Part shown: positions 11,393-32,135 of the stretch, in pieces
How positions within the stretch are numbered: position 1 is the first letter of the stretch
Layout: each line of letters starts with the position of its first letter
The notes under the pieces: generated by a model
The model's input: only the letters and a program-made list of their open reading frames with translations
Told to the model about the DNA's origin: nothing
Database searches by the model: none
Made by a program: the position numbers and the translations under genes
Source of the DNA: Deltaproteobacteria bacterium
Lineage (GTDB): Bacteria; Desulfobacterota; Syntrophia; Syntrophales; UBA8958
Direction of reading: 5' to 3'
Length of the DNA: 64,000 nt
Assembly (NCBI GenBank): GCA_026388335.1
Contig: JAPLJZ010000268.1
Span: 1,872 to 65,871, forward strand

Positions 11393-11455
11393 GGAGAGGA
11401 CAGGTGATGGCAAGCTTGGTGGGAGGTCGGATAAGCCTCCCTCGGCAAGGAAACG

Positions 11456-16359: not shown

Positions 16360-16394
16360 AAATAAATAAGTGAGCCATATACGGAGGAAAAACC

Positions 16395-17024
16395 ATGCAA
16401 AGGCTGTTGAAAAAAAAGGAGTATCCCCAGCCGTATCTTGAGTACGGTATGGTAGTGGAAGAGGGGGATCTGTTGAGAGTGGAGACTGCGCTGGGCAGTT
16501 ACCCGGCCCTGAAGGCGGCAAGTTGTCTCGTGAGGCCGAAGCAGGGAGATTCCGTCCTTACTGTTTTCGATGCAGACGGAAACTGTTTTATTCTCTCCGT
16601 GCTTATGCAGAATCAGGCGGCAGGGCAGATCAATGAGATCGTTCTGGAGGGGGATGCGAGTCTTCACATCCACAATGGGGGACTTACGATCTCGGCTGAT
16701 GATGAGGTGTCGGTCGTGTCGGACAGGCTTTCCCTGGCAGCCAGGACCGGAAATGCCGCCTTCGAGGAATGTTCATTCTTGGGGGAGTCCTTTTTTGCTG
16801 AGTTTGGAAGCATCAAGACGGTGGCCGGGAAAGTGGAAAATATCTTCCAGCAGCTTACGGAAAAGCTCATCGATGCTTTCAGATTTGTGAAGGATCACGA
16901 GGAAATACAGACCGGATCGACGCGCTATCTTGTCGATACAAACCTTACCATGCATTCCAAAAATGCCATGCATGTCGCCGAGGAAATCGTCACGATCAAC
17001 GCCGGGCAGGTACATCTCGGATAA
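16395..17024 (+). CDS. DUF3540-like protein of the vgrG/DUF2169/pentapeptide module
   Basis: 209 aa. It sits in the conserved position between the pentapeptide-repeat gene and the PAAR-like gene. The family call rests on synteny and size, from memory. Confidence 0.6.
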   Translation: MQRLLKKKEYPQPYLEYGMVVEEGDLLRVETALGSYPALKAASCLVRPKQGDSVLTVFDADGNCFILSVLMQNQAAGQINEIVLEGDASLHIHNGGLTISADDEVSVVSDRLSLAARTGNAAFEECSFLGESFFAEFGSIKTVAGKVENIFQQLTEKLIDAFRFVKDHEEIQTGSTRYLVDTNLTMHSKNAMHVAEEIVTINAGQVHLG

Positions 17025-20137: not shown

Positions 20138-20142
20138 ATTGC

Positions 20143-21279
20143 TTATGTTTGCGCTGTTGCTGATCGTATTGTAGCTGGCGGCCAGGATGCCTGTAGGCTG
20201 ATTATCCGCGCCGGGTCCGGGTTGATGGCGATTGTGTTGTTGATGGTGGTGTTGCTCACGCCGCTGTTGTCGAAGAAATTGAAAATGTCGATGGATGAAT
20301 TGGCCTGGTCGAACACACTGACCTTGATTTCTCTACCGTTGACGGTCGTAACGGCATAGTTGTATTTTAGCGCGTAGACATCGCTCGGATAGACCGGGTG
20401 CAAGTCGCACGATTCACCGCTTTCACACCCCAGAGGGGCACCGCCAGACCCGGCCAGCACCTCATAAGTGCCGTCGTGTAAGGTTCGGTAATACAGGTGC
20501 TCATGTCCGGCAAACAGGATCGAGGCATTTGTATTTGTGGCAGTGCCTGAGGTGGTTATCGTCTGCCAAGTATTCTTCATATTCTCATTCGCCGTAGGAT
20601 CCGTGGGAGAGTATGCCGGGATGTGGGTAAATACAAATGAATGGGCTGCCTTGCTGTTTGCCAGCAGACCTTGCATCCAAGTTTGCTGTGTCGCATCGAT
20701 GCCATAAACCGGCGCAGTACCGTCTGCAATGGCAAGATAGCTGTCGGCAATTATAAACTGTGAATTGCCAAAATTAAATGAAAAGGCCAACTTGTTATAA
20801 GAAGCGCCAGGACCGTTCTGTGTCCAACTGCCGTTAAAAAGGCCCTGAAATTCTATTTGCCTCGACAGTGCTTGATCGTCAAGATGAGGAGCATGGTTCA
20901 TTGTGTAGAGTTCGTGGTTGCCCACGGCGTAAGCTGACGGAATGCCTGCGGCATCCAGGCGATTTGTAAACAGGGCTTTGAAATCGTTCAGATTGGCCGT
21001 GCCGCCCCGGTAGGCGGCATCACCGCCGAAGATCACCACTTTGGGGGCGGGGGTCAAGGCGAGGATGCTGTCCACAATTGGGGTGAGAACAGTCCAGTTG
21101 GTGAGATCGTTGTTGGCATCGCCTCGGGTGTCTGCCACCCAAACGAAACTCTGCGATTGGTCGGCATGTGCGGGAATAACCCCGCCGATGACCGCAAAAA
21201 CAAGCAAGAATGTCCCGAGAAGAAACGCTGGGATCGCACATCTGCTTCTGATTGACGTCATTTGTGAAATCTGGGACAA
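20143..21279 (-). CDS. calcineurin-like metallophosphoesterase with signal peptide; N-terminal part of the frameshifted autotransporter
   Basis: 378 aa with signal peptide AIPAFLLGTFLLVFAVIGGVIPAHA. Phosphoesterase motifs are FGGDAAY, GNHELY, FTHIP and GHEHLYYR. The last roughly 20 codons look out of frame. Confidence 0.8.
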   Translation of the reverse strand: MSQISQMTSIRSRCAIPAFLLGTFLLVFAVIGGVIPAHADQSQSFVWVADTRGDANNDLTNWTVLTPIVDSILALTPAPKVVIFGGDAAYRGGTANLNDFKALFTNRLDAAGIPSAYAVGNHELYTMNHAPHLDDQALSRQIEFQGLFNGSWTQNGPGASYNKLAFSFNFGNSQFIIADSYLAIADGTAPVYGIDATQQTWMQGLLANSKAAHSFVFTHIPAYSPTDPTANENMKNTWQTITTSGTATNTNASILFAGHEHLYYRTLHDGTYEVLAGSGGAPLGCESGESCDLHPVYPSDVYALKYNYAVTTVNGREIKVSVFDQANSSIDIFNFFDNSGVSNTTINNTIAINPDPARIISLQASWPPATIRSATAQT

Positions 21280-21340: not shown

Positions 21341-22312
21341 TCATCTGGCGGGCATGGCAACGCGGAAACCATAAATTGAGGTCCTGCTGGATGGATAACC
21401 CCAGTCTCGGTTTGCTGCCCGGGTAGTTGCCGGTATGCTGATCCAGGAACCGCCGCGCAGTACACGCGTTGTGCCGACAGGCGGCCCCTGAGGGTCGTTG
21501 CGAGGACTGCTGCCATAATAGTGATCCTCATACCAGTCTTGGCACCACTCCCAGACGTTTCCGCTCATATCGTAGAAACCCAGACCGTTAGGCAGCTTTT
21601 TACCGACGGCCTGGGTTTTATCTTTGGCATTATCGCCCAGCCAGGCATACTTGGGCAGGGACGAAAGATCGTTCGTCCCCGCCCATTTCTCATTTTTCCC
21701 GCCGCTCCGGGCGGCAAACTCCCATTGCGCTTCCGTGGGCAGTCGGAAAGTCCGTCCTGTTTTTTGGGACAACCACTCCGTGAACGCTGCCGCGTCATGC
21801 CAGGATATGCCGACAACCGGATGATCGTCCGCCGTCAAGGCATCTCCCAGGAGGGCATAATGCTCGCTGATACCCGTATAGGCACTTTCGTTGCCTTCAT
21901 TTTCCTCCCATTCCGGTAGGTGACTCCCCGTCTCGAGGGTGAATCGCCGGTATTCCCGGTTGGTGACCTCATACTTTCCCAAATAGAAATCGCTCACGCA
22001 CACTTCGTGAACCGGTTCCTCATATATCGCCGGAGCAAAATCTTCCAAGTAAATCTGATGGTCGGAAAGCAACTTGTCCTCTCTGCTCTTAAAGGTATTC
22101 CCCATCCGATAGCAGCCGCCCTTAACGAAGATGAATTCCATCTCTGTGTTGGTTTCGGTAAAAACATCCCCCCTGGTCACGGGAAGGGTCTTCCCCTTTC
22201 CCTTCCCCCGATCTGCTTGATTATTTCTCCCCTCATCCCCCATGGCGACGCTTCCCATCATATTGAAAACCAGGATTATAAGGAGATAAAAAGATAGAAT
22301 GAGTCGTTGCAT
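21341..22312 (-). CDS. exported FGE-sulfatase (SUMF1/formylglycine-generating-enzyme-like) domain protein
   Basis: Segments PVVGISWHDAAAFTEWLSQKTGRTFRLPTEAQWEFAARSG, SGNVWEWCQDWY and RVLRGGSW are typical. The start was set at MQRLILSFYLLIILVF (signal-like); the longer ORF reaches 22366. Confidence 0.85.
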   Translation of the reverse strand: MQRLILSFYLLIILVFNMMGSVAMGDEGRNNQADRGKGKGKTLPVTRGDVFTETNTEMEFIFVKGGCYRMGNTFKSREDKLLSDHQIYLEDFAPAIYEEPVHEVCVSDFYLGKYEVTNREYRRFTLETGSHLPEWEENEGNESAYTGISEHYALLGDALTADDHPVVGISWHDAAAFTEWLSQKTGRTFRLPTEAQWEFAARSGGKNEKWAGTNDLSSLPKYAWLGDNAKDKTQAVGKKLPNGLGFYDMSGNVWEWCQDWYEDHYYGSSPRNDPQGPPVGTTRVLRGGSWISIPATTRAANRDWGYPSSRTSIYGFRVAMPAR

Positions 22313-22460
22313 AATCTTCACCCAGATGCGCCCGGGAGGGCATGTCGTCCAGTCATTCTGAAACATGAAAACCTAAAAGAAGTCGGTTTATTAATCAATC
22401 ATTCCATATATTTAATAAAAATAAGCGACCCACAGGAAAAGATTATATTTGTTGCTATTC

Positions 22461-23276
22461 TTATCTTTTAAGATGATAAACCGCTGTGGCTTCTGTCCAG
22501 TCCGTCAGATCAATCTGGTTCAACCTCCTGACAAGGTCGCTGATCATTCCGGTTGACTTTGCATCATAGACCTGGAAAATCCCTTCTCTAAACCCGATGG
22601 AAAGCAGCCATTCCTTCTTCCGGGTGGCGATGATCTTGATTTTTTCTTCAGCAGATCTTTCTTTGTAGTTCGGCAGGAACATGGCTTTCAGATGAATAGG
22701 GCTATCCGCGGGAGGGAATTGGTATGCCATTCCTGCTCTGGTAAAATTGTCTGTCATATTTGCATTGGGGAGAAGGAGGGTTACGGAACCGTCTGCCGCA
22801 ATGGAGAAGATATAGACGTAGGAGTCTGCGCTTACTTGGTAGAAGATATTAACTTCTTCGCCTTCTTTCAGATCTGTTTTTGAGAGTGACAACTTTGTGG
22901 AGAGACCTTCTCCCTTTTCAGGATAAACCGGCATAACAAGGGCGTTGAGTTTAACCCTGTAAAGATTTCTGTCCTTCTCATCCCATTCCTCTTTGACAAT
23001 ATTAACCTTCTCTATCTTTCCTCTGACAGCGGCATAGATCAGGTCTTCGGCAATCTGGTAATTGGAAACCAAGGTGTGAGATTTGATGAATACGCCGACT
23101 GCCTTTTCTACTGCCTTCTTCTGTGCATCAATCTTTGCCCTCTCTTTAACCTCTTTCTGGGTTTCAATCTCCCCCAATAATGCCTCGCCCATCGACTCGA
23201 CCCAGACCGGTTTCTCCGCGGCAAGACAGACAAGAGGAAGAATCAGAAATATGCATATCACGAGAATCTTTTTCAT
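22461..23276 (-). CDS. exported DUF4384-domain protein with LPP20/FlgT-like N-terminal region
   Basis: Signal peptide MKKILVICIFLILPLVCLAAE. The C-terminal half, EGEEVNIFYQVSADSYVYIFSIAADGSVTLLLPN, matches the DUF4384 pattern from memory. Confidence 0.65.
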   Translation of the reverse strand: MKKILVICIFLILPLVCLAAEKPVWVESMGEALLGEIETQKEVKERAKIDAQKKAVEKAVGVFIKSHTLVSNYQIAEDLIYAAVRGKIEKVNIVKEEWDEKDRNLYRVKLNALVMPVYPEKGEGLSTKLSLSKTDLKEGEEVNIFYQVSADSYVYIFSIAADGSVTLLLPNANMTDNFTRAGMAYQFPPADSPIHLKAMFLPNYKERSAEEKIKIIATRKKEWLLSIGFREGIFQVYDAKSTGMISDLVRRLNQIDLTDWTEATAVYHLKR

Positions 23277-24020
23277 AAACGATCCCTAATTCTTTTTCGC
23301 CCCAATCAACTGCGGTGTCTGCTCGTTGTTGAATTGTTTACGTGCTATGCGTTCCACCTGGGGTTTCAGGTAGCTGAATAGGTCGCTGATCGCAATGGAA
23401 CCATCCTTCTTTACAACATCCTCATTCTTGATTCCTTTGAGCATAAAGTAGGTGAAAAGTCCGTGCCCCTTTTCATCATAGGTTGAGCTTATCTGCTCAC
23501 CAGATGAGGCGGACAGAACCGTCATATTCTTTGACAAAACAATGTTGCTCTGGAGATTCATAACAAGAGGTCGGGCACCTTTCGCTAGAACCGACCTGCC
23601 GCCCGCACCGGAGAAACAGGAATCAAGGGCAACAACGATTTCTTTTGCCGGGAGTTTGCCGAGAGCATCGTACATTCTTTTCAATGAATAGCCTGTCTCG
23701 GCGATAAAAGACGGATCGCCGTCGTAGGGCACAAGGTAAGCCCCGCCGGTCTTGGGATCAGGCGCTCCATGGCCGGAATAATAGATAAAAACTGTGCTAT
23801 CCTTTTCCACATTATTATGCAGCCATTTTTCAAAGTATTTTACCAGATCAACGTTCGTCGCACGATCATTCAGGAGAGTTACGACATTCTCTTCCGGATA
23901 ACCCATAACCTTTGTCAGATATTCCGTGAACGTCTTTGCATCAGCAGTAGCGAAGTCTGCCTTGGGAAGTTTCTGGCGATACTGCTCAATGCCGATCACG
24001 ATGGCATAGGCGTTTTTATT
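23272..24020. repeat. direct repeat copy 1 (caspase-domain coding segment plus 14 nt of 3' flank)
   Basis: Pairs with 24778-25526. The 3' roughly 190 nt are almost identical, including the TAAACGATCC flank, and identity decays toward the 5' end. Boundaries are approximate. Confidence 0.8.
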
Positions 24021-24737
24021 GGGTTTTGCTTTTATCGCCGGAAGTTCGTCAATGTCTGATTTGACGGTAGATTTTTCAGAGGCATAGACTGGCATCTCCT
24101 TCTGATCCCTGACGGCTGCTGTGCTGGATATGCCGGTTTTGGACTTGCTGAATTCAGCCAACTTTACAGAACTGCTGAGTGCATACTCCAGTCGAACTCT
24201 GGCTTCCGCATCAGCCCGTTCGGTAGCTTTCCTAAAGCTGTCGGGGCCTGCGAATGTTCCAACAGGCTGGTTGCTTTGACCTTTAATAGTATCGATTGGT
24301 TGCTTATCTGGTGTTAAAAATATCGCCCGCTTATCGGATTTCGCACTATCTCCAATACCAGCAGTCCAATCTAATACAGCTACCAAGTTGGCGTTGATTG
24401 CAGAGACATCCTCAAATTTATCTATCCTGATTACATCCTTGAAATTCTTTCGATAGACATCAATGTCCTTTTCGAGCATTTTCTCGAGCTCCTCAGATGT
24501 TTTCCAAGACCTACCCTGTCGACCATCTTCTATGGTACTTTTGGTATTTCCCGAGATAAGAACAGCAAGTACGAGATTGGGATAGGCGGGAGACGCAGAT
24601 TGGAAATTAATACCAGCAAGTGGATCGCGGTATTCTTCAGACATAGGGCTTGGTACTGCACACCCTGTCATCGCCATAATCGCAGACATAATAAAGATCA
24701 CACTGATCAAAGAAATTGAATCACCCTTAATATTCAT
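23286..24737 (-). CDS. caspase-family (peptidase C14) lipoprotein
   Basis: Lipobox AMTGC. The caspase core has the His motif FIYYSGHGAP and the Cys motif VALDSCFSGAGG. The N-terminal roughly 200 aa have no recognisable domain. Confidence 0.88.
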   Translation of the reverse strand: MNIKGDSISLISVIFIMSAIMAMTGCAVPSPMSEEYRDPLAGINFQSASPAYPNLVLAVLISGNTKSTIEDGRQGRSWKTSEELEKMLEKDIDVYRKNFKDVIRIDKFEDVSAINANLVAVLDWTAGIGDSAKSDKRAIFLTPDKQPIDTIKGQSNQPVGTFAGPDSFRKATERADAEARVRLEYALSSSVKLAEFSKSKTGISSTAAVRDQKEMPVYASEKSTVKSDIDELPAIKAKPNKNAYAIVIGIEQYRQKLPKADFATADAKTFTEYLTKVMGYPEENVVTLLNDRATNVDLVKYFEKWLHNNVEKDSTVFIYYSGHGAPDPKTGGAYLVPYDGDPSFIAETGYSLKRMYDALGKLPAKEIVVALDSCFSGAGGRSVLAKGARPLVMNLQSNIVLSKNMTVLSASSGEQISSTYDEKGHGLFTYFMLKGIKNEDVVKKDGSIAISDLFSYLKPQVERIARKQFNNEQTPQLIGAKKN

Positions 24738-24777: not shown

Positions 24778-25526
24778 TTCGTAAACGATCCCTAATTCTT
24801 TTTCGCCCCAATCAACTGCGGTGTCTGCTCGTTGTTGTACTGTTTTCTGGCAATGCGTTCCACCTGGGGTTTCAGGTAGCTGAATAGGTCGCTGATCGCA
24901 ATGGAACCATCCTTCTTTACAACATCCTCATTCTTGATTCCTTTGAGCATAAAGTAGGTAAAGAGCCCGTGTCCTTTTTCATCATAGGTTGAGCTTATCT
25001 GCTCGCCCGATGAGGCAGACATGACCGTGATGTTTTTGGGCATAGCCATGTTACTTTGGAGATTCATCACAAGCGGTCGTGCACCCTTCGCAAGAACACT
25101 TCTTCCCCCTGCACCGGAGAAGCAAGAGTCCAGGGCAACGATAATTTCTTTAGCTGGTAGTTTCCCGAGGGCGACATAGAGCTTCTTCAAAGGATACCCT
25201 GTCTGTGCGATGAATGAAGGATCTCCATCGTAGGGAACAAGATAGGCATCACCGTTCTTGGGGTTGGGGGCGCCGTGACCGGAATAATAGATGAAAATAG
25301 AGCTATCCTTTTCAGCATGGTTGACAAGCCACTGTTCAAAATATTTCTCAAAGTCACTCTTGGTCGCATATTCATTGGTCAAAGTGACAATATTCTCTTC
25401 CGGATAACCCATGACCTTGGAAAGATATTCGCTCACCAGTTTTGCGTCGCTTACAGCAAAATCGGCTTTGGGCAATTTCTGACGATACTTCTCGATTCCG
25501 ATCACGATGGCGTAGGCATTCTTTTT
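24778..25526. repeat. direct repeat copy 2 (caspase-domain coding segment plus 3' flank)
   Basis: See copy 1. The last 70 codons of both genes encode the same peptide (GHGLFTYFMLKGIKNEDVVKKDGSIAISDLFSYLKPQVERIARKQ...). Confidence 0.8.
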
Positions 25527-26984
25527 CAGGGTCGCTGACTTGCGGGGAAGATCATCAACGTCCTGTTTGGCGGCCTGAAATAGCATCGGCGATGCGTCGG
25601 AAGTCGGAGTCGGCGCCCCCATACTTTTCTGCGCCGCCATAACTATATACTTGAACTTATCACTTGCCTTCGTGACGCCGCCGGTTTTTGCCGTATTTAT
25701 TGCCGTCTCCGCAACGCGTAGCGGGCTGTCTTGTCCCTCTGTTTCGTCGCTTTCCACATCAGGAAAAATGCCGTTGCCCTGGATTACTTTGCCCGAAGGC
25801 AGATAATACTTTGCAGTAGTCAGCCTGAGAGCCGATCCGTCGCTGAGAGGAAGTATCGTTTGGACGTTTCCCTTTCCGAAGGTATGCTTGCCCAGCAATA
25901 GCGCTCTGCTCTGATCCTGGAGAGCACCCGCTACTATCTCTGCACCGCTGGCCGTGCCTTCGTTGACAAGTACTATGATCGGATAGAGCGGCTGTGTGCC
26001 GATAGTCTTACCTTCAAACTTATTCTCCGATCCCGCGCCTCTGCCGCGAATTGTCACGATGGTGTTGGCCCCGACAAACTTGCCGGCCACGTCCGTCGCA
26101 ACGGATAATAATCCGCCTGGGTTATTGCGCAGGTCAAGAACCAAACCTTTGAATTTCGAAGACCTTGAACCGAGCTTATTAAGGGCATTTTCCACGTCCC
26201 GAGCGGCATTCTCCTGGAAGGAAGAAATCCTCAAATATCCGATTCCCTCCTGTAGCTCTCTGAATTTAACGCTCTTTACTGAAATAATAGCCCTGACTAA
26301 AGTAAACTCCCGGGGCTGCTCAAAACCGTTGCGCATTATTGCGAGAGTCACCTTTGAGTCTTTCGGCCCCCTCAACTTTTTCACGGCTTCTGTAACGGTG
26401 ATACCCTGTGTAGAGATGCCGTCTATTCTGGTGATTTGATCTCTCGCCTTTATTCCCGCCAGATAAGCGGGTGTATCTTCAATCGGCGATACTACGGTCA
26501 GAATGCCTTTAGCGGCGTTAATTTCCAATCCCACGCCGCCGAAGCTCCCACGCGTATCGACTTGCATTTCTTTGTACATTTCCGGAGTTAGGAAACCGCT
26601 GTGCGGGTCCAACGCTGCGAGCATACCGGTGATGGCGGCATATTCCCATTTCCGAGGGTCAGAAGGGGCTGACTTTGACCAGATCAGATATCGATCGGCC
26701 ACCAGGTTTTCAGCCTTTTTTGCGTCAATGCCGATGGCGCTGTAATCTATACTAATTTTAGCAAAACTTCTATTATTGGCATTAAGCAATTCCTCCATGC
26801 CATTGACAGCCGATGAAGCCAGATAAGAAGGGTCGGGCTGCTCAACATAGTTTTCCATTATTTTAGAAAATGCATCACGGAAGACGACTGGCGATTCTTC
26901 GGCAAATGCCGACAAATGCCATCCTGCAAGCAGCGTGACTATGAGCAGGGCACCCATCATTTTTCCTGCCTGCAATCCCCTCAT
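24792..26984 (-). CDS. S41 C-terminal-processing peptidase (PDZ-containing) fused to a C-terminal caspase (C14) domain
   Basis: Start at MRGLQAGKMMGALLIV after GAAGGAG, with a signal peptide. S41 motifs are present: a PDZ region (GILTVVSPIEDTPAYLAGIKARDQITRIDG), LVLDLRNNPGG, the Ser motif NEGTASGAEI and the Lys motif TFGKGNVQT. A caspase core follows (YYSGHGAP, ALDSCFSGAGG). Confidence 0.88.
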   Translation of the reverse strand: MRGLQAGKMMGALLIVTLLAGWHLSAFAEESPVVFRDAFSKIMENYVEQPDPSYLASSAVNGMEELLNANNRSFAKISIDYSAIGIDAKKAENLVADRYLIWSKSAPSDPRKWEYAAITGMLAALDPHSGFLTPEMYKEMQVDTRGSFGGVGLEINAAKGILTVVSPIEDTPAYLAGIKARDQITRIDGISTQGITVTEAVKKLRGPKDSKVTLAIMRNGFEQPREFTLVRAIISVKSVKFRELQEGIGYLRISSFQENAARDVENALNKLGSRSSKFKGLVLDLRNNPGGLLSVATDVAGKFVGANTIVTIRGRGAGSENKFEGKTIGTQPLYPIIVLVNEGTASGAEIVAGALQDQSRALLLGKHTFGKGNVQTILPLSDGSALRLTTAKYYLPSGKVIQGNGIFPDVESDETEGQDSPLRVAETAINTAKTGGVTKASDKFKYIVMAAQKSMGAPTPTSDASPMLFQAAKQDVDDLPRKSATLKKNAYAIVIGIEKYRQKLPKADFAVSDAKLVSEYLSKVMGYPEENIVTLTNEYATKSDFEKYFEQWLVNHAEKDSSIFIYYSGHGAPNPKNGDAYLVPYDGDPSFIAQTGYPLKKLYVALGKLPAKEIIVALDSCFSGAGGRSVLAKGARPLVMNLQSNMAMPKNITVMSASSGEQISSTYDEKGHGLFTYFMLKGIKNEDVVKKDGSIAISDLFSYLKPQVERIARKQYNNEQTPQLIGAKKN

Positions 26985-27055
26985 AGATACTCCTTCGAAT
27001 CTCTGCTTCGCGCAGCCTGTGTGCGACCCGCGCAGGAAGTCTCGCATTGCGGAGG

Positions 27056-27097
27056 CACCGCTAAGGCACTTCGGTTCACAGAAGTGCCTTAGCGGTG
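27056..27097. other. 17-bp perfect hairpin upstream of the S41-caspase gene
   Basis: CACCGCTAAGGCACTTC-ggttcaca-GAAGTGCCTTAGCGGTG, followed on the + strand by an AT-rich stretch. Its function is unknown. Confidence 0.5.
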
Positions 27098-27523
27098 TAT
27101 AATATAATGTAATAATAAACGATATCTAGTTTCGTGTGTGGGAAACTTTTATTAATAAAGAGTAACCTTCCCATCATCAACATTGTTGATTGCTCCTTGT
27201 TTGAGTGCCGACGAGACAAAACGGGAATTTCTCTGTTTGATATCCATAACAACTCCAGTTGTTTGCGATAAGATTCGGATGTCAACGGTATTCGCCGAAA
27301 CAAGCGGCGCTTCTTGGCTGCTGCTTCCGACCAACCTCAGCTCATGACCATGACTTTTGTCTGGCTGGGAGCGCAATTGAGCCCGATATTTAATTGATAT
27401 TGCTTTTGACGGGTCGAAGTATAGGGGGGTTATTCTCGTTCGTCAAGGATATTTTGCGTCGAAAAACAGGGGCATGCGATGCGGTATGGGGAACATCCAA
27501 TAGCCTTCAGCCTTAGTTAGCAG

Positions 27524-27578: not shown

Positions 27579-28064
27579 TTAAGCTTTCGGCGCCTTCCAG
27601 TTGTCTTCCGCCTCAATTCCGTCCGGCGTGTACGTCCAGACTACATCCTCATAGGTGAAGGCGATTTCCTGCATGTGCTTGAAGGGCTTATTCTCCTCCA
27701 GGAAGGTGTAGGGGAAAAATTCCCGGGAGTTTACAATGATCGCTTCCTTCAGCTTAATCGTGAAGTATTTTTCCTCCTGCCCTTTTTCACTGATCCGGAA
27801 GAAGGTGATCTCTGCATCGAGATGTTCACCGGAGCAGCAGGCCTGGAAGAGCTTGGGGGTGTGCTTGCCCATGTTAGTGATGAGCTTCAGGGGCAGATGG
27901 ATGCGCTGGCCCGTGGGCAAACCCGTATGGGTGTCCTTGGGAATTTCCACTGCATGGTCCATCTGATAGCAGATAATCAGATTTTCCCGGCCCTGCTGGG
28001 TGCAGTCTCCCTGAATTTCTCCCTGATTCTTGCCCGTTACCTTCATGTAAATTGTCATTGCCAT
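27579..28064 (-). CDS. hcp: type VI secretion tube protein Hcp (TssD), orphan copy
   Basis: 161 aa, MAMTIYMKVTGKNQGEIQGDC...HTGLPTGQRIHLPL, typical of the Hcp1 family. It differs at 12 positions from the copy at 39219-39704 by manual alignment. Confidence 0.93.
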   Translation of the reverse strand: MAMTIYMKVTGKNQGEIQGDCTQQGRENLIICYQMDHAVEIPKDTHTGLPTGQRIHLPLKLITNMGKHTPKLFQACCSGEHLDAEITFFRISEKGQEEKYFTIKLKEAIIVNSREFFPYTFLEENKPFKHMQEIAFTYEDVVWTYTPDGIEAEDNWKAPKA

Positions 28065-28115: not shown

Positions 28116-28131
28116 AGCATATCCCGTGCCA
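28116..28131 (-). promoter_or_regulatory. sigma-54 (-24/-12) promoter of orphan hcp
   Basis: The - strand reads TGGCACGGGATATGCT, with GG and GC at the canonical spacing (consensus TGGCACG-N4-TTGC). It lies about 50 nt upstream of the hcp start. Confidence 0.7.
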
Positions 28132-28253: not shown

Positions 28254-29489
28254 TCATTCGGTGGTAATGCCGTATCGTTTCATTTTCTTACGTAGGCCTT
28301 CCCGGCTCATCCCCATATGCCTTGCCGCTGCGGACCGGTTGCCATTTGTCGCGGCAATGGTTTCCAGAATGAGACGGCATTCCGTTTCTTTCAGCGACGG
28401 GGCATGCTCAGCGGCCATATCGGCAACCGGGGTCTCCCGCACATGATTGCGCAGATCTTCCGGAGTAATGGTGTCCGTGGCTGCCAAGGCAACAGCCCGT
28501 TCCACCTCATTTTCAAGTTCCCTGATATTCCCAGGCCAGGAATAGGCAGCCAACTTTTTCAGGGTCTCCTTCGCAAAGTGCATCGGCGGACGGCCAAGAC
28601 GTTTTACCGATTGTTCAAGAAAATAATTAAGCAGGAGCGGGATATCATCCGGTCGCTCCCGCAGCGGAGGTAAATGGAAGTGAACAACATTCAGGCGGTA
28701 AAAGAGGTCTTCGCGGAATGCTTTTGCTGTTACAGCCTTCCAGATGTCCGTGTTCGTGGCGGCGATGATGCGAACATCTACAGGGATGGATTTTCTTCCG
28801 CCGACATGCTCCAGGACCCTTTCCTGAATCACGCGCAGGATTCTGGCCTGCGCAGCGGGCGGCATGTCCCCGATTTCGTCAAAGAACAGAGTGCCGCCGT
28901 TGGCCTGTTCGATCTTGCCGATACGCTTTTCCACCCCTGTTGCCACGCCTTTTTCCACGCCAAACATCTCGGATTCGAAGATGCTCTCGGGTATCGCGGA
29001 ACAGTTCAGCGCAACAAAAGGCCCGTTACAACGGCTGCTGTTATAGTGTATGGTTTTAGCGACCAATTCCTTACCGGTTCCCGTTTCGCCCGTAATCAGT
29101 ATGTTTACGAGGCTATCGGCAATTTTTTGTACTTTGTCAAGAAGTGTCAGCAGAATGGGACTTTTACCGATGATGCGCACGGGACTGAAGTGTTGGCGGA
29201 TCGTTTGCCGTAAATTGACATTTTCATGGGAAAGGTGATCTTTCGCTGCCAGCAGTTTCTTTTCCGTTTCTTTCAAATCATCAATGACGCATTCGAGATG
29301 GTATTGCCTGGATTCGACCTGAACCATCATCATCCCGAAGGCCTCAGCCAGTTTTATGACAAGCGCGGGATAGACGCCCTCCTTGGTAAGTTCGAAAAGG
29401 ACATTCTCATTCCCGTATTTGCCGATGGAGATCTCCTGGCAGAGTCCGATGAGATACTGCAGCAATTTATCCGATTGATTCTTTTGCAT
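28254..29489 (-). CDS. sigma-54-dependent Fis-family transcriptional activator (bEBP) with atypical GAFTGA loop
   Basis: AAA+ core with Walker A GETGTGKE, LFFDEIGDM and RIIAATN, plus a C-terminal HTH (AAARHMGMSREGLRKKMKRYGI). The roughly 100-aa N-terminal region has no REC, GAF or PAS signature. The sigma-54 contact loop reads GVATGV instead of GAFTGA. Confidence 0.88.
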   Translation of the reverse strand: MQKNQSDKLLQYLIGLCQEISIGKYGNENVLFELTKEGVYPALVIKLAEAFGMMMVQVESRQYHLECVIDDLKETEKKLLAAKDHLSHENVNLRQTIRQHFSPVRIIGKSPILLTLLDKVQKIADSLVNILITGETGTGKELVAKTIHYNSSRCNGPFVALNCSAIPESIFESEMFGVEKGVATGVEKRIGKIEQANGGTLFFDEIGDMPPAAQARILRVIQERVLEHVGGRKSIPVDVRIIAATNTDIWKAVTAKAFREDLFYRLNVVHFHLPPLRERPDDIPLLLNYFLEQSVKRLGRPPMHFAKETLKKLAAYSWPGNIRELENEVERAVALAATDTITPEDLRNHVRETPVADMAAEHAPSLKETECRLILETIAATNGNRSAAARHMGMSREGLRKKMKRYGITTE

Positions 29490-29598: not shown

Positions 29599-31236
29599 TC
29601 ATTTACGGGCGAAGCTTTCATGCATCTTCATGGCCACGGGCGGACCGGCCATTTTGTCCATAATAACCTCGATGTAAACGCCGGCATTGCACATCTCGGC
29701 CTTATTCATCGCCTCTTCAAGCTCGGCATTGGTGGTTACCTTTGCCGTAAACCAGTTTGTACAACCCAAGGCCTCGGGCAGTTTTGCATAGTTCCACTGT
29801 GCAAGATCGTTGTAATAGGTCATGGGCTCCCGGCAGAGCAGTCGTTCAATAAGGTAGCCGTCGTTGTTGAGACAGAAGATAACGGGCTTCAGTCCGAAAC
29901 GGCCAAACTGGCTGACTTCCTGGGCTGTAAGCTGGTGAGCACCCTCACCGGTGATGAGTATGGTCCGGCGCTCAGGAGCAGCCAGCGCCGCACCGAAGGC
30001 TGCCGGCGTAGCCCAACCTATGGAAGCCCATAAGGCCTGGTTATGAAAGACTGCACCTTTCGGCATCATTGCGCACTCGAGACCCATCGAGGTTGTTCCT
30101 GTCTCGGCAATAACAATGTCGTCAGGCTTGAAAAACCTCTCCCAGCGAGGGTAAAGGTATTCCGGTGTGATTCTGTCACTATATTTTCCTTCGGGCTCTG
30201 AAAGCCCATGGGTTTTCGGCGCGTTGATGCTCTTTTTCCCTATTTTTTTGACCAGCGCGTCAATAAGATCTTTCATTTCCACTCCGGGGTAGACCGCGTG
30301 GCCAACGCGTACGGAGTGGTGCCCCACTGCAATCATCTTGGCCTTTTCTATGACGGCAGTATAGGCCACGGTATTGAGATCGCTCCAGAGAGCACCCAGA
30401 TTCAGCACACAGTCGCAGTTTTCTATAAACTGCCGGATCTCCGGGTTAATATCGCGGCCAATGTACATACCCATAAACTGGGAATGTGTTTCGTCGAGTG
30501 CTGTTTTATCCATGGTCATGGTGGCAAAGGGGAGGCCTGTAGCCTCGATGAGTGCCTGTGCTTCAGCCCTCAGGTCCAGACGGCAGATGAGGTAACCGGC
30601 CAGAATAACGGCTATTTGCGCTATTTCGAGTTTCTCTATTATGGCGTTGACCGCAGCGTCAAGTGTGTCGGGAACACTCGAGGGAAGAGTTGCTGGGGGA
30701 AGCGCTGTACCGAGAACGGTCATCCTTGCATAGTCGTCCGGTATGGCCAAATAAACGGGACGTCGGTGTGTGAGGGCTGCATTGACGACGCGCTCCATCT
30801 CAGTGACGGCGTTCTCCGGCGTGAGGATGGCACTTGCGCAGACCGCCGGCTCCGTCATCTTCGCAAAGAGATCAAACTGACCGGTGCCAAGGGTGTGGTG
30901 TACAATCCTACGTTCTTGCTGCGTCCTTGTATTGGGCATACCGACTATATGAAAGATTGGCAGGTGTTCAGTAAAAGAACCTGCAATACCGCATAAGGCT
31001 GAAAGCTCACCGACACCGAAAGTTGTAGACAGGGCCGAGAAGCCCCTGATCCGTGCATAGCCATCAGCGGCATACGCTGCATTCAGCTCATTGCAGCAAC
31101 CGATCCAGCGCATCTCATTGTCGTTACAGACTGCATCGTTTACTGCAAAGGCGTAATCGCCAGGAACACCGAATACGTCTTTAATGCCGAGTATTTTCAA
31201 GCGTCCAAGAACATGCTCTATTACAGTTTCTGCCAT
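29599..31236 (-). CDS. thiamine-diphosphate-dependent alpha-keto-acid decarboxylase (indolepyruvate/phenylpyruvate/pyruvate decarboxylase family)
   Basis: 545 aa. VFGVPGDYAFAVNDAV...WIGCCNELNAAYAADGYARIRG...TTFGVGELSALCGIAGSFTEHLPIFHIVG...HHTLGTGQF closely follows the IpdC/PDC pattern. Confidence 0.85.
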   Translation of the reverse strand: MAETVIEHVLGRLKILGIKDVFGVPGDYAFAVNDAVCNDNEMRWIGCCNELNAAYAADGYARIRGFSALSTTFGVGELSALCGIAGSFTEHLPIFHIVGMPNTRTQQERRIVHHTLGTGQFDLFAKMTEPAVCASAILTPENAVTEMERVVNAALTHRRPVYLAIPDDYARMTVLGTALPPATLPSSVPDTLDAAVNAIIEKLEIAQIAVILAGYLICRLDLRAEAQALIEATGLPFATMTMDKTALDETHSQFMGMYIGRDINPEIRQFIENCDCVLNLGALWSDLNTVAYTAVIEKAKMIAVGHHSVRVGHAVYPGVEMKDLIDALVKKIGKKSINAPKTHGLSEPEGKYSDRITPEYLYPRWERFFKPDDIVIAETGTTSMGLECAMMPKGAVFHNQALWASIGWATPAAFGAALAAPERRTILITGEGAHQLTAQEVSQFGRFGLKPVIFCLNNDGYLIERLLCREPMTYYNDLAQWNYAKLPEALGCTNWFTAKVTTNAELEEAMNKAEMCNAGVYIEVIMDKMAGPPVAMKMHESFARK

Positions 31237-31247
31237 GTGATCTCCTC

Positions 31248-32135
31248 TTACTGGTTTTTTATTGGCCGTTGAAAGATGTTTTCCCGTTCGCGGATTTTCG
31301 GTGCGCCAATAAAATCAAAGTATTCCGTGAAAGTAAGCATCTGATCCCATATGCCTTCACTTGTTCCGGTTTCCTTCAGGCATTTCGCCCACTTTTGCAG
31401 TGCCTTCACGGTAGCATATAGAGAGGCGCAAGGATATGTAACCACATTATAACCAATTTTCTCCAATTCACCGGCGGTTAAAAAAGGTGATTCGCCTCCT
31501 TCTATCATGTTTGCCATAACAGGGACGCCAACTTCTTTCATGATCTTATTGACTTTAATCATATCTTCTTTCGTATTGAGTGCTTCGATGAAAACCATGT
31601 CTGCGCCTTCGGAGGCGTACATGCGGGCACGATTTATTGCATCATCGACGCCATACACAGCGACTGCGTCTGTTCGCGCCATGATTACAAAATCAGGATC
31701 TTTACGCGCCCACAATGCCGCTCGCAGCTTGGGTAGATATTCTTCGGTTGAGACGACGCTTTTCCCTGCCATATGACCACATCGTTTAGGATAAGTCTGG
31801 TCTTCAATGAATAGCCCGGCGGCTCCCGCTTGCTCACAATCTTGAACAGCCCGGATGGTATTATTCACATCTCCAAAGCCAGTGTCAATATCGACAAAAA
31901 CCGGAATATCCACCGCGTTGCAAATATGACGATAATTGTTAATCATTTCAGTCGCTGTGGCCAATCCAATGTCGGGGAAGCCCAAAACACTGCCTGCCGT
32001 ACCGTAACCGGCTGCAGAAATAGCTTGGAATCCGGCCTGTTCTAAAACCTTGGCTGCTAGAGCATCGTGGCAGCAAGGTAACTGTAAAATCTCAGGTGCG
32101 TTAATCAACTGCCGAAAGTAAGTGGTTTTTTTCAT
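31248..32135 (-). CDS. isocitrate lyase/PEP mutase superfamily lyase (2-methylisocitrate-lyase/oxaloacetate-decarboxylase-like)
   Basis: 295 aa. DIDTGFGD and IEDQTYPKRCGH are present; the KRCGH catalytic loop is of the lyase type, not the mutase type. Confidence 0.8.
   Translation of the reverse strand: MKKTTYFRQLINAPEILQLPCCHDALAAKVLEQAGFQAISAAGYGTAGSVLGFPDIGLATATEMINNYRHICNAVDIPVFVDIDTGFGDVNNTIRAVQDCEQAGAAGLFIEDQTYPKRCGHMAGKSVVSTEEYLPKLRAALWARKDPDFVIMARTDAVAVYGVDDAINRARMYASEGADMVFIEALNTKEDMIKVNKIMKEVGVPVMANMIEGGESPFLTAGELEKIGYNVVTYPCASLYATVKALQKWAKCLKETGTSEGIWDQMLTFTEYFDFIGAPKIRERENIFQRPIKNQ

What the first reader, a model, noticed from the sequence alone, without database searches (positions are those of the whole stretch)
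24792..26984. Two-protease fusion: S41 (Ser/Lys) C-terminal processing peptidase joined to a C14 (His/Cys) caspase domain
One 730-aa exported polypeptide carries a complete Tsp/CtpA-like module (PDZ, LRNNPGG, GTASGAE, GKG). After a linker of about 60 aa it carries a complete caspase core.

Such an architecture suggests built-in zymogen control: C-terminal processing by S41 would act on the very end that carries the caspase. I do not know this architecture as a characterised one.
Basis: partly seen in the sequence, partly recalled or inferred. Interest (0 to 1): 0.65.

Follow-up and report, generated by a model that had tools for sequence, protein, structure and literature searches.

The report
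Periplasmic serine-protease/caspase fusion protein
A real, conserved but rare bacterial gene encodes one exported protein carrying a CtpA-type tail-processing serine protease and a caspase-like cysteine protease; it has not been studied, and it belongs to a large, undescribed family of periplasmic caspase homologues.

Summary
Window 24792-26984 (minus strand) is one uninterrupted 730-codon gene with a strong ribosome-binding site. It encodes a Sec signal peptide, a complete CtpA-type module, a disordered linker of about 35 residues, and a complete caspase-fold domain. The CtpA-type module has N-terminal helices, a PDZ domain, an S41 core with Ser346/Lys371/Gln375, and two C-terminal helices. 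The caspase domain has His570/Cys621.

It is not an assembly artefact. Single contigs from three independent studies span the junction without a mismatch. The same architecture occurs in 17 clusters at 90% identity and in at least 12 more distant cluster representatives (Syntrophales, Nitrospinota, Elusimicrobiota). All four catalytic residues are kept.

It is rare: about a dozen of 1.84 billion representatives. No paper on it turned up.

The caspase head belongs to a large, highly conserved periplasmic family. Its N-terminal modules vary (ankyrin, TPR+PDZ, Skp, cytochrome c7). Its genes often lie in tandem and are followed by a DUF4384 gene. Four loci, including this window, read S41-caspase, then usually a second caspase gene, then DUF4384.

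I favour a coupled model: the caspase cuts after Arg/Lys and the Ctp head degrades from the new C-terminus. This is inferred, not shown.

The parts
24792..26984 (-). Whole gene: 730-aa S41-C14 fusion protein plus TAG stop
   Evidence: Uninterrupted ORF. SD GAAGGAG lies 7 nt before the ATG at 26984. Most homologues are 730 aa long. Contigs from 3 studies span the junction.
26901..26984 (-). Sec signal peptide, residues 1-28, with AFA|EE cleavage motif
   Evidence: Read from the sequence: basic n-region, hydrophobic core, AxA motif. Conserved in P0001-P0008. P0009 and P0012 instead carry a lipoprotein-type signal ending in Cys.
26616..26888 (-). N-terminal helical region of the Ctp module, residues 33-123
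   Evidence: Helices H33-45, H52-69, H88-105 and H110-123 in the AF2 model, pLDDT mostly above 90. Weak CtpB_N-like Pfam hit. Ctp proteases dimerise through this region (PMC12749690).
26319..26540 (-). PDZ domain, residues 149-222. The carboxylate-binding loop GSFGGVG starts just before it at residue 146
   Evidence: Pfam PDZ, PDZ_2 and PDZ_6. G146, F148, G150 and G152 are invariant in 17 fusions and in the 14 distant ones.
25752..26243 (-). Peptidase S41 core, residues 248-411. Ser346 at 25947-25949, Lys371 at 25872-25874, Gln375 at 25860-25862
   Evidence: Pfam E 9.5e-52. Best solved relative is P. aeruginosa CtpA 7RPQ, E 7e-88. Two CtpA entries, 7RPQ and 7RQH, differ (Ser versus Ala) exactly at the column aligned with Ser346. 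K371 and Q375 are invariant; S346 is invariant in A1 and nearly invariant in A3.
25623..25727 (-). Two C-terminal helices of the Ctp module, residues 420-454
   Evidence: AF2 helices H420-434 and H442-454. PaCtpA and HpCtpA trimerise their dimers through a C-terminal helix (PMC12749690).
25518..25622 (-). Disordered linker, residues 455-489, ending in the family motif D-V-D-D-L-P
   Evidence: Coil throughout, pLDDT below 50 for residues 461-473, and whole-model pTM only 0.58 although each half folds well. Other fusions have CARDB or Glucodextran_B beta-sandwich domains inserted here.
24813..25514 (-). Caspase-fold (C14) domain, residues 491-724. His570 at 25275-25277, Cys621 at 25122-25124. 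Predicted S1 Asp513 at 25446-25448 and Asp619 at 25128-25130
   Evidence: Pfam E 1.7e-15. AF2 pLDDT 84, pTM 0.87. Foldseek hits: MALT1 3V4O E 1e-12 with TM 0.68/0.73, GSU0716 3BIJ, metacaspases and caspases. YSGHG aligns with the YSGHG motif of Yca1. H570 and C621 are invariant.
25065..25121 (-). Conserved but disordered loop just after the catalytic Cys (FSGAGGRSVLAKGARPLVM, residues 622-640): candidate activation or autoprocessing loop
   Evidence: pLDDT below 50 in both models, yet R628 and K633 are nearly invariant and R158, which is residue 636 of the full protein, is nearly invariant in the domain alignment. Its position matches the intersubunit linker of caspases (PMC5756287). The role is inferred.
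23286..24737 (-). Tandem paralogue: 483-aa predicted lipoprotein with the same C-terminal caspase domain
   Evidence: Pfam C14. Caspase domain 83% identical to the fusion's. Signal sequence ends in ...AMTGC. A 3' gene-conversion tract is shared with the fusion.
22461..23276 (-). 271-aa exported DUF4384 protein, 9 nt downstream of the paralogue
   Evidence: Pfam DUF4384, E 5e-19. A homologue follows a caspase gene within 12-140 nt on the same strand in most of the 33 of 65 caspase loci that have one. The same order is seen in L089, L120 and L122.
21341..22366 (-). 341-aa exported FGE-sulfatase-fold protein. Loosely associated; membership of the unit is uncertain
   Evidence: Pfam FGE-sulfatase, E 1.5e-57. 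Found in only 2 of 65 caspase loci. FGE-sulfatase is a known fusion partner of prokaryotic caspase homologues (PMC3501461).

Best explanation
The gene encodes a Sec-exported, periplasmic protein with two proteolytic heads.

Head 1 is a complete CtpA-type C-terminal processing protease. It has oligomerisation helices, a PDZ gate and a Ser346/Lys371/Gln375 site. Enzymes of this type need a free substrate C-terminus.

Head 2 hangs on a flexible linker of about 35 residues. It is a complete caspase-fold His570/Cys621 endopeptidase. The two Asp residues that line the acidic S1 pocket of metacaspases and paracaspases are conserved, so cleavage after Arg/Lys is predicted.

Proposed mechanism (inferred): the caspase head makes internal cuts in envelope protein substrates. 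The new C-termini are captured by the tethered PDZ domain and then trimmed or degraded by the S41 site. The fusion would thus couple an endopeptidase to an enzyme that depends on a free C-terminus. If the Ctp part oligomerises as CtpA does, it would also hold several caspase heads close together, the condition under which caspases and paracaspases are known to become active.

The protein is one member of a wider, undescribed periplasmic system. That system consists of one to six genes of the form 'variable N-terminal module + near-constant caspase domain', typically followed by a DUF4384 gene. Here the order is S41-caspase, lipoprotein-caspase, DUF4384.

Shown:
- The architecture, the export signal and the conservation of both active sites.
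- Rarity, recurrence across phyla, and the operon pattern.

Inferred:
- P1 specificity and oligomerisation.
- Hand-off of substrate between the two heads.
- The identity of the substrates.
For: - **Architecture and active sites:**
- **Both halves fold confidently, with no fixed mutual orientation:** pLDDT 84.7, pTM 0.58, linker pLDDT below 50. The caspase domain alone gives pTM 0.87. Its fold matches MALT1, bacterial GSU0716, metacaspases and caspases.
- **Real DNA:**
- **Recurrence:**
  - 17 clusters at 90% identity.
  - 12 further representatives at 50% identity with S41 followed by C14, confirmed by Pfam.
  - Named sources: Nitrospinota, Elusimicrobiota, Syntrophales.
  - Different linker inserts (CARDB, Glucodextran_B).
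  - The fusions are polyphyletic among unfused S41 and C14 sequences in NJ trees. This suggests repeated fusion or domain replacement, hence selection for physical linkage.
- **PDZ carboxylate-binding loop is invariant**, so C-terminus recognition is probably retained.
- **Asp513 aligns with the Asp of metacaspase 'CINDA'**, and Asp619 lies two residues before the Cys. All characterised non-caspase C14 enzymes cleave after Arg/Lys through an acidic pocket (PMC5756287).
- **The family is periplasmic:** fusion partners include Skp/OmpH, cytochrome c7, PDZ, TPR+PDZ and lipoprotein signals.
- **Operon pattern:**
- **Precedent for two-protease relays that involve a Ctp enzyme:** Prc with RseP in cell-surface signalling (abstract of PMC10392083, seen), and SpoIVB with CtpB (my own knowledge).
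Against: - No biochemical data exist for any member.
- No substrate is known, and nothing computed here shows that the two heads act on the same substrate.
- In 5 of the 9 distinct loci examined the fusion stands alone among unrelated genes, so the operon partners are not obligatory.
- The third acidic S1 residue known from MALT1 has no conserved counterpart here, so P1 specificity is only a prediction.
- One partner, cytochrome c7, is not an obvious substrate-recruiting module. This weakens the reading that every N-terminal module is a recognition module.
- The NJ trees carry no support values, and the unfused sequences were sampled around this one query.
Confidence: 0.35

Rival explanations
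1. Docking model. The near-constant caspase domain serves mainly as a shared dimerisation and assembly module. It would pair the S41-carrying protein with the paralogous caspase proteins encoded next to it (ankyrin-, lipoprotein- or TPR-caspases), and perhaps with the DUF4384 protein. The Ctp protease would thereby be recruited into a multi-caspase periplasmic complex.
For: - The caspase domain is far more conserved than its partners: 75-88% identity across hundreds of clusters with different N-terminal modules.
- Tandem arrays occur in 34 of 65 loci.
- In this window the last ~215 nt of the two otherwise old paralogues have been homogenised: 94-96% identity against 73%, third-position identity 86% against 46%, with a 107-nt identical run.
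- This tract encodes the C-terminal helices and last strand. In caspases and MALT1 that region forms the dimer interface (my knowledge).
- The caspase parts of P0001-P0008 interleave with unfused caspases, while their S41 parts form a clean clade.
Against: - His, Cys and both S1 Asp are invariant, so catalysis is under selection and assembly alone cannot be the whole story.
- Five fusion loci have no second caspase gene nearby.
- No prediction of a complex was possible with the tools available.
- This rival is compatible with the best explanation rather than exclusive of it.
Confidence: 0.2
2. Polyprotein model. The caspase head, or the S41 head, cuts the linker soon after export and releases two independent enzymes. 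The fusion would then only ensure co-export and equal dosage.
For: - The linker is long, disordered and exposed.
- It carries basic residues just before the caspase domain (LPRKSATLKKN).
- Autoprocessing after Arg/Lys is usual in metacaspases and orthocaspases (PMC5756287).
Against: - The basic residues in the linker are not conserved among the fusion groups. For example, P0009-P0012 have IPDFKASLQPN.
- The D-x-D-x-L-P motif and the basic stretch before the domain also occur in unfused family members (consensus). They belong to the caspase cassette and are not a fusion-specific cleavage site.
- Repeated independent fusion with different linkers is more easily explained by a benefit of tethering.
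Confidence: 0.15
3. The S41 head processes the extreme C-terminus of its own caspase domain, or of a neighbour's, as a zymogen switch.
For: - Ctp enzymes do act on C-terminal tails.
- The caspase C-terminus is free and lies on the same molecule.
- The paralogue encoded next door ends in the identical tail, so action in trans is conceivable.
Against: - The tail follows caspase lineage, not fusion status.
- Unfused relatives are far more numerous and lack an S41 domain.
- The tails are charged (…GAKKN, …GLRK), unlike the non-polar tails that Tsp/Ctp PDZ domains prefer (my knowledge).
- The conserved, disordered candidate activation element lies in the loop after Cys621, not at the C-terminus.
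Confidence: 0.1
4. Artefact: two adjacent genes joined by an assembly or frameshift error.
For: The window comes from a metagenome. A repeat of about 215 nt shared with the downstream paralogue breaks short-read unitigs at 24782-25130.
Against: - The repeat lies downstream of the junction.
- Single contigs in three studies cover 25101-27200 with 0 mismatches.
- 29 or more independent protein clusters from NCBI, ENA, JGI and Logan show the same continuous architecture.
- Two further genomes carry it in six-frame ORF reading.
Confidence: 0.01

Closest known systems
CtpA of Pseudomonas aeruginosa (PDB 7RPQ, 8SXE) and other bacterial C-terminal processing proteases (H. pylori CtpA, B. subtilis CtpB 4C2C, E. 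coli Prc 5WQL)
   Same: - Signal peptide, N-terminal helices, PDZ domain, S41 core with the Ser/Lys/Gln site, and C-terminal helices.
- E 7e-88 to 7RPQ over residues 107-413.
- Passes the TIGR00225 cut-off.
   Different: - After the C-terminal helices it carries a linker and a 240-aa caspase domain that no characterised Ctp has.
- It scores below the cut-offs of every named Ctp subfamily (CtpA/B/C/Z, MXAN_5808).
- No TPR adaptor such as LbcA or NlpI is encoded next to it.
Orthocaspases and type I metacaspases (MaOC1 of Microcystis; yeast Yca1 4F6O) and the MALT1 paracaspase (3V4O)
   Same: - Caspase-haemoglobinase fold.
- His/Cys dyad in the SGHG and DSC motifs.
- Asp residues at the positions that line the acidic S1 pocket.
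- A disordered loop after the Cys, where these enzymes are processed or rearranged (PMC5756287).
   Different: - It is exported to the periplasm, whereas those enzymes are cytosolic.
- The caspase domain is at the C-terminus with accessory modules N-terminal to it. Orthocaspase accessory domains are commonly C-terminal (PMC5756287).
- Sequence identity to solved structures is only 14-20%.
- It scores below the NCBIfam 'caspase_w_EACC1' cut-off: 79 against 140 bits.
GSU0716 of Geobacter sulfurreducens (PDB 3BIJ), a structural-genomics caspase-like protein
   Same: It is the closest solved bacterial fold match (E 2e-11, TM 0.67/0.64), and it comes from the same broad group of anaerobic 'deltaproteobacteria'.
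   Different: It is single-domain and has no published function that I know of. Identity is only 17-19%.
Two-protease relays that involve a Ctp enzyme (SpoIVB then CtpB on SpoIVFA in B. subtilis; Prc with RseP on anti-sigma factors, PMC10392083)
   Same: An endoproteolytic step combined with a PDZ-gated Ctp step on extracytoplasmic substrates. This is the logic proposed here.
   Different: There the enzymes are separate proteins and the partner is a serine or metalloprotease. Here the partner is a caspase-fold cysteine protease on the same chain. The analogy is functional only and was not tested.

Membership tests
Peptidase family S41 / C-terminal processing peptidases (TIGR00225 prc) | Score above the curated family cut-offs | tested here: met
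   Pfam PF03572 scores 175 bits against a cut-off of 24. TIGR00225 scores 310 bits against 218.6.
Peptidase family S41 / C-terminal processing peptidases (TIGR00225 prc) | Catalytic Ser/Lys dyad (plus Gln) in the GxxSxxE and FGKG motifs | tested here: met
   S346, K371 and Q375 are present. S346 aligns with the position that differs (Ser versus Ala) between two CtpA entries, 7RPQ and 7RQH. K371 and Q375 are invariant in both fusion alignments; S346 is invariant in A1 and present in at least 90% of A3.
Peptidase family S41 / C-terminal processing peptidases (TIGR00225 prc) | PDZ domain inserted before the protease core, with a carboxylate-binding loop | tested here: met
   PDZ, PDZ_2 and PDZ_6 at residues 149-222. 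The GSFGGVG loop has G146, F148, G150 and G152 invariant.
Peptidase family S41 / C-terminal processing peptidases (TIGR00225 prc) | Proteolysis that depends on a free substrate C-terminus | not testable with these tools
   Needs an enzyme assay.
Named Ctp subfamilies (CtpA, CtpB, CtpC, CtpZ, MXAN_5808 long form) | Score above the NCBIfam exception or equivalog cut-off | tested here: not met
   Scores of 244-369 bits against cut-offs of 525-665. It is not a member of any named subfamily.
Peptidase family C14 (caspase, metacaspase, orthocaspase) | Score above the Pfam gathering cut-off, and a caspase-haemoglobinase fold | tested here: met
   PF00656 scores 57.8 bits against 21.4. AF2 pTM is 0.87. 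The top 50 Foldseek hits are all MALT1, bacterial GSU0716, metacaspases or caspases, with E down to 1e-12.
Peptidase family C14 (caspase, metacaspase, orthocaspase) | His/Cys catalytic dyad | tested here: met
   H570 (YSGHG, aligned with the YSGHG of Yca1) and C621 (DSCFSG). Both are invariant in all alignments.
Peptidase family C14 (caspase, metacaspase, orthocaspase) | Acidic S1 pocket and cleavage after Arg/Lys (the non-caspase branch) | tested here: inconclusive
   D513 aligns with the metacaspase Asp, and D619 lies two residues before the Cys. A third acidic residue is not conserved. No activity data exist.
Orthocaspase sensu Klemencic & Funk (prokaryotic, p20 only, no p10) | Lacks a p10-like region; accessory domains usually C-terminal | tested here: not met
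   The model aligns over about 250 columns with whole caspase domains (TM 0.73 normalised to the 234-residue 3V4O chain), so it contains the p10-equivalent strands and helices. Its accessory modules are N-terminal.
EACC1-associated caspases (NF047832) and PADLOC defence caspases | Score above the cut-off, and defence-system partners nearby | tested here: not met
   NF047832 scores 79 bits against 140. PADLOC gives only the generic 'caspase' model, and none of the four neighbours scanned matched a PADLOC model. All proteins of the cluster carry export signals.

The most novel reading that the evidence does not exclude
The fusion may be the visible tip of an undescribed periplasmic caspase system in anaerobic Thermodesulfobacteriota, Nitrospirota, Nitrospinota and Elusimicrobiota. 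Arrays of caspase-fold proteases with interchangeable N-terminal sensor or recruitment modules (Ctp protease, ankyrin, TPR-PDZ, Skp, cytochrome c7) would assemble through their near-identical caspase domains. Together with a DUF4384 partner they would run a regulated proteolytic cascade in the cell envelope, a bacterial extracytoplasmic counterpart of initiator/executioner caspase logic. The S41-caspase would be the member that links endoproteolysis to C-terminal degradation.
Probability: 0.15. Interest if true: 0.8.

Novelty: new variant of a known kind. Interest (0 to 1): 0.5.

Why it matters
Both halves belong to well-known protease families, but no enzyme combining them has been studied. 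Caspase homologues in bacteria are usually discussed as cytosolic cell-death or defence effectors.

This protein and its several thousand relatives are built for the periplasm. Their partners are typical of envelope protein handling: PDZ, Skp, TPR and a Ctp protease.

If the two heads cooperate, the protein would be a compact natural example of an endopeptidase wired to a C-terminus-dependent degrader. It would also give a handle on what periplasmic caspases do. The recurrence of the fusion across phyla, with different linkers, is the kind of signal that points to a functional partnership between S41 and this caspase family. That partnership could then be tested where the two are encoded separately.

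Tried and rejected
- **GTDB genome scan with the fusion alignment.** The five long matches were not fusions; they were tandem caspase genes (L009, L014, L047) or tandem S41 genes (L026, L031).
- **A conserved neighbourhood as a clue to function.** Rejected as a general rule. Five loci place the fusion among unrelated housekeeping genes. Only the caspase/DUF4384 pattern recurs.
- **T6SS cargo or immunity role, suggested by the window's T6SS context.** Set aside, because all four proteins carry Sec or lipoprotein signals and the orthologous fusions examined lie outside T6SS loci.
- **Anti-phage defence system.** PADLOC gave only a generic caspase hit with no partners.
- **Expression.** Lake metatranscriptomes from the same samples gave nothing. 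One groundwater metatranscriptome has low-depth contigs at roughly 95-97% identity over 26315-26628 only. This is weak evidence that a close homologue is transcribed and says nothing about the junction.
- **Sigma-54 promoter for the fusion.** None found. The only good match (28116-28131) sits upstream of hcp.
- **Biopython NJ tree.** It timed out. I replaced it with a numpy NJ on Kimura distances without bootstrap.
- **A caveat on the caspase-domain search.** It did not list P0001-P0008 or the window's own paralogue, which should have been top hits. Counts from that word-indexed search are therefore lower bounds.
Full report
**1. What is in the sequence**

On the minus strand an uninterrupted ORF runs from 27047 to 24792. 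The ATG at 26984 has a GAAGGAG Shine-Dalgarno 7 nt upstream, and most homologues are 730 aa long.

- Pfam finds PDZ, Peptidase_S41 (E 9.5e-52) and Peptidase_C14 (E 1.7e-15) in that order.
- NCBIfam places the N-terminal part in TIGR00225 'C-terminal processing peptidase', above its cut-off. It falls below the cut-off of every named Ctp subfamily.
- The N-terminus (MRGLQAGKMMGALLIVTLLAGWHLSAFA|EE) is a standard Sec signal.
- All quoted motifs are present at S346, K371, H570 and C621.

**2. Is it real?**

- The junction stretch is held at 100% of sampled words by ten metagenome runs from three studies.
- In three of those runs, one from each study, a single assembled contig covers 25101-27200 with no mismatch. 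That interval runs from the S41 part through the linker to the catalytic Cys.
- Short-read unitigs do break at 24782-25130. There the gene shares a near-identical tract with the next gene, and the shared piece has double depth. This lies downstream of the junction and cannot create the fusion.
- Independently, 17 clusters at 90% identity from NCBI, ENA, JGI and Logan have the same architecture, at 100-44% identity.
- An exhaustive HMMER pass over 1.84 billion cluster representatives gives at least 12 more distant ones, confirmed by Pfam.
- Two further genomes show it in plain six-frame reading.
- The artefact explanation is excluded.

**3. Anatomy**

The S41 part is most like P. aeruginosa CtpA (7RPQ, E 7e-88).

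- Two CtpA entries, 7RPQ and 7RQH, differ (Ser versus Ala) exactly at the column aligned with Ser346.
- Lys371 and Gln375 (FGKGNVQ) are invariant. So is the glycine-rich carboxylate-binding loop of the PDZ domain, both in the 17 close fusions and in the 14 distant ones. Ser346 is invariant in the close set and nearly invariant in the distant one.

The AlphaFold model of the whole protein has mean pLDDT 84.7 but pTM only 0.58.

- It shows two well-folded blocks with no defined mutual orientation.
- After the S41 core come two confident helices (420-434 and 442-454). These correspond to the C-terminal helices through which CtpA-type enzymes oligomerise (PMC12749690).
- Then follow about 35 residues of coil, with pLDDT below 50 at residues 461-473.
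- The 'linker of about 60 aa' is thus half Ctp module and half true tether.

The caspase domain modelled alone has pLDDT 84 and pTM 0.87.

- It matches MALT1 (E 1e-12, TM 0.68/0.73), Geobacter GSU0716, metacaspases and caspases.
- His570 aligns with the YSGHG His of Yca1. Cys621 sits in DSCFSG.
- Asp513 aligns with the Asp of the metacaspase CINDA motif, and Asp619 lies two residues before the Cys. To my knowledge these are the positions of the acidic S1 residues in TbMCA2 and MALT1.
- All characterised non-caspase C14 enzymes cut after Arg/Lys (PMC5756287). Arg/Lys specificity is therefore a prediction, not a result.
- The loop just after the Cys (GAGGRSVLAKGARPLVM) is disordered in both models yet almost invariant. 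It occupies the place of the caspase intersubunit linker and is the best candidate for an activation or autoprocessing element.

**4. How common and how old**

- About a dozen of 1.84 billion 50%-identity representatives carry the fusion, against 17,160 single-domain hits at E ≤ 1e-30.
- Named sources are Syntrophales, Nitrospinota and Elusimicrobiota. L120 and L122 add a further 'delta proteobacterium' and a Nitrospirae genome.
- Public names are generic: 'S41 family peptidase', 'caspase family protein', 'carboxyl-terminal processing protease'.
- A pattern scan of 185,579 species-representative genomes for this particular junction found one, a Syntrophaceae MAG.
- Some fusions have CARDB or Glucodextran_B beta-sandwich domains inserted in the linker.
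- One protein (P0356) has the reverse order, and its caspase domain has lost the Cys (LEAGFSG).

In NJ trees (no support values):

- The S41 parts of P0001-P0008 form a clean clade. Their caspase parts interleave with 125 unfused caspases.
- The fusions as a whole are scattered among unfused sequences in both trees.
- Together with the directly visible gene-conversion tract (section 5), this indicates repeated fusion and/or replacement of the caspase cassette. That in turn implies selection for keeping the two activities on one chain.

Text searches found no paper on the architecture. The text of the 2012 census of prokaryotic caspase homologues mentions neither PDZ nor an S41 peptidase.

**5. 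The family and the operon**

The caspase head belongs to a large family: 2,948 scored relatives, the top 120 at 74-88% identity. In it the caspase domain is always C-terminal and the N-terminal module varies.

- Ankyrin repeats are the commonest module.
- Others are TPR+PDZ, PDZ alone, Skp/OmpH, cytochrome c7, DUF2846, or an unassigned lipoprotein domain.
- Skp, cytochrome c7 and the lipoprotein signals fix the family in the periplasm.

In 65 caspase loci from species-representative genomes:

- 34 have two to six tandem caspase genes.
- 33 have a DUF4384 gene. In most of these it lies 12-140 nt downstream of a caspase gene on the same strand.

The window fits this pattern: S41-caspase (24792-26984), lipoprotein-caspase (23286-24737), DUF4384 (22461-23276), then an FGE-sulfatase-fold protein. 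All carry export signals.

The same head-of-operon position of an S41-caspase is seen in three other loci:

- L089/L005: fusion, then DUF4384.
- L120: fusion, Ank-caspase, DUF4384.
- L122: fusion, Ank-caspase, DUF4384, Ank-caspase, and more caspase genes.

Five other fusion loci stand alone.

Within the window the two caspase-coding regions are old paralogues: 73% DNA identity, with 46% at third codon positions. Their last ~215 nt, however, are 94-96% identical (86% at third positions), with a 107-nt identical run. This is a recent gene-conversion tract. It covers the C-terminal helices and the last strand.

**6. Mechanism**

Shown:

- An exported protein with two intact, conserved active sites.
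- A flexible tether between them.
- A conserved PDZ peptide-binding loop.
- Recurrence of the fusion.

Inferred:

- The caspase head cuts envelope proteins after Arg/Lys.
- The Ctp head can only engage a free C-terminus, so it captures the new ends and trims or degrades them.
- Oligomerisation of the Ctp part would cluster the caspase heads, which is how caspases and MALT1 are activated.

I give this coupled-protease model 0.35. The rivals are:

- A docking role of the caspase domain in a multi-caspase complex: 0.2. It is compatible with the main model and is supported by the extreme conservation and the conversion tract.
- A polyprotein that falls apart after export: 0.15.

- The C-terminal tail is shared with unfused relatives and varies among fusions.
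- The tails are charged.
- The unfused relatives listed work without an S41 domain.

**7. Comparison and verdict**

The protein is a member of S41 (Ctp) and of C14 by every sequence and fold criterion I could test. It is not a member of any named Ctp subfamily, of the EACC1-associated caspases, or of orthocaspases in the strict 'p20 only' sense. It is not a recognisable defence system.

It is a new variant of known kinds: an uncharacterised, rare but recurrent architecture. The more interesting object is the periplasmic caspase family and its caspase-array/DUF4384 operons, of which this fusion is one member. Interest 0.5.

Noticed in passing
window 23286-23500 and 24792-25006: Gene-conversion tract between the fusion and the downstream caspase paralogue. 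The last ~215 nt are 94-96% identical (third codon positions 86%), with a 107-nt identical run at 24853-24959. The rest of the caspase-coding DNA is 73% identical (third positions 46%). Short-read unitigs break here and show double depth.
   Followed up: yes
window 9146-17024 and 27579-49736: The caspase cluster sits inside a type VI secretion locus. On one side are VgrG, DUF2169+pentapeptide, pentapeptide and DUF3540. On the other are Hcp, a sigma-54 activator, ClpV, TssG, TssF, TssC, TssA, TssM, TssL, TssK and TssJ. Orthologous fusions in other genomes are not in T6SS loci, so the link is probably incidental.
   Followed up: partly
window 28116-28131 (minus strand): Sigma-54-type promoter match TGGCACGGGATATGCT (1 mismatch) about 50 nt upstream of hcp (27579-28064), next to the sigma-54 activator gene (28254-29489). 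The total number of matches in the window is no higher than chance; only the position is suggestive.
   Followed up: no
window 29599-32135 (minus strand): A PEP mutase and a TPP-dependent decarboxylase lie side by side, the usual first two steps of phosphonate biosynthesis. They are lodged between the sigma-54 activator and clpV of the T6SS locus.
   Followed up: no
window 27059-27094 (minus strand): Perfect 14-bp hairpin (CGCTAAGGCACTTC-tgtgaacc-GAAGTGCCTTAGCG) 75 nt upstream of the fusion's start codon, with no T-run after it. Its role is unknown.
   Followed up: no
window 17681-21279 (minus strand): Downstream of the FGE-sulfatase gene, on the same strand, lie an exported calcineurin-like metallophosphatase (378 aa) and an 818-aa autotransporter with PATR repeats. 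I did not determine whether they belong to the caspase cluster.
   Followed up: no
P0356 (841 aa; not in the window): A fusion in the reverse order: caspase-like domain, SH3, PDZ, S41. The caspase Cys is replaced (LEAGFSG), so this is a pseudo-caspase joined to an intact Ctp.
   Followed up: partly
P0134, P0172, P0222, P0247, P0315, P0336: The same near-identical caspase domain is fused to Skp/OmpH, cytochrome c7, PDZ alone, TPR+PDZ, and Ank+TPR+PDZ. PDZ-caspase and Skp-caspase proteins do not seem to have been described either.
   Followed up: partly
L122 3912-16198; L009 6082-10197: Large caspase arrays. The Nitrospirae locus L122 has four caspase genes plus DUF4384, flanked by lipoproteins with CsgG/LpoB-like motifs (judged by eye). 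The Syntrophales-like locus L009 has three caspase genes plus DUF4384, with an FGE-sulfatase fragment nearby.
   Followed up: partly
tool behaviour: The word-indexed search with the caspase domain did not return P0001-P0008 or the window's own 483-aa paralogue, although these should be among the best hits. Family counts from that search are lower bounds.
   Followed up: no
window 377-1873 (minus strand): A 498-aa ORF with no Pfam match at E ≤ 1e-5, next to two HGD-D (2-hydroxyglutaryl-CoA dehydratase D-component) genes.
   Followed up: no
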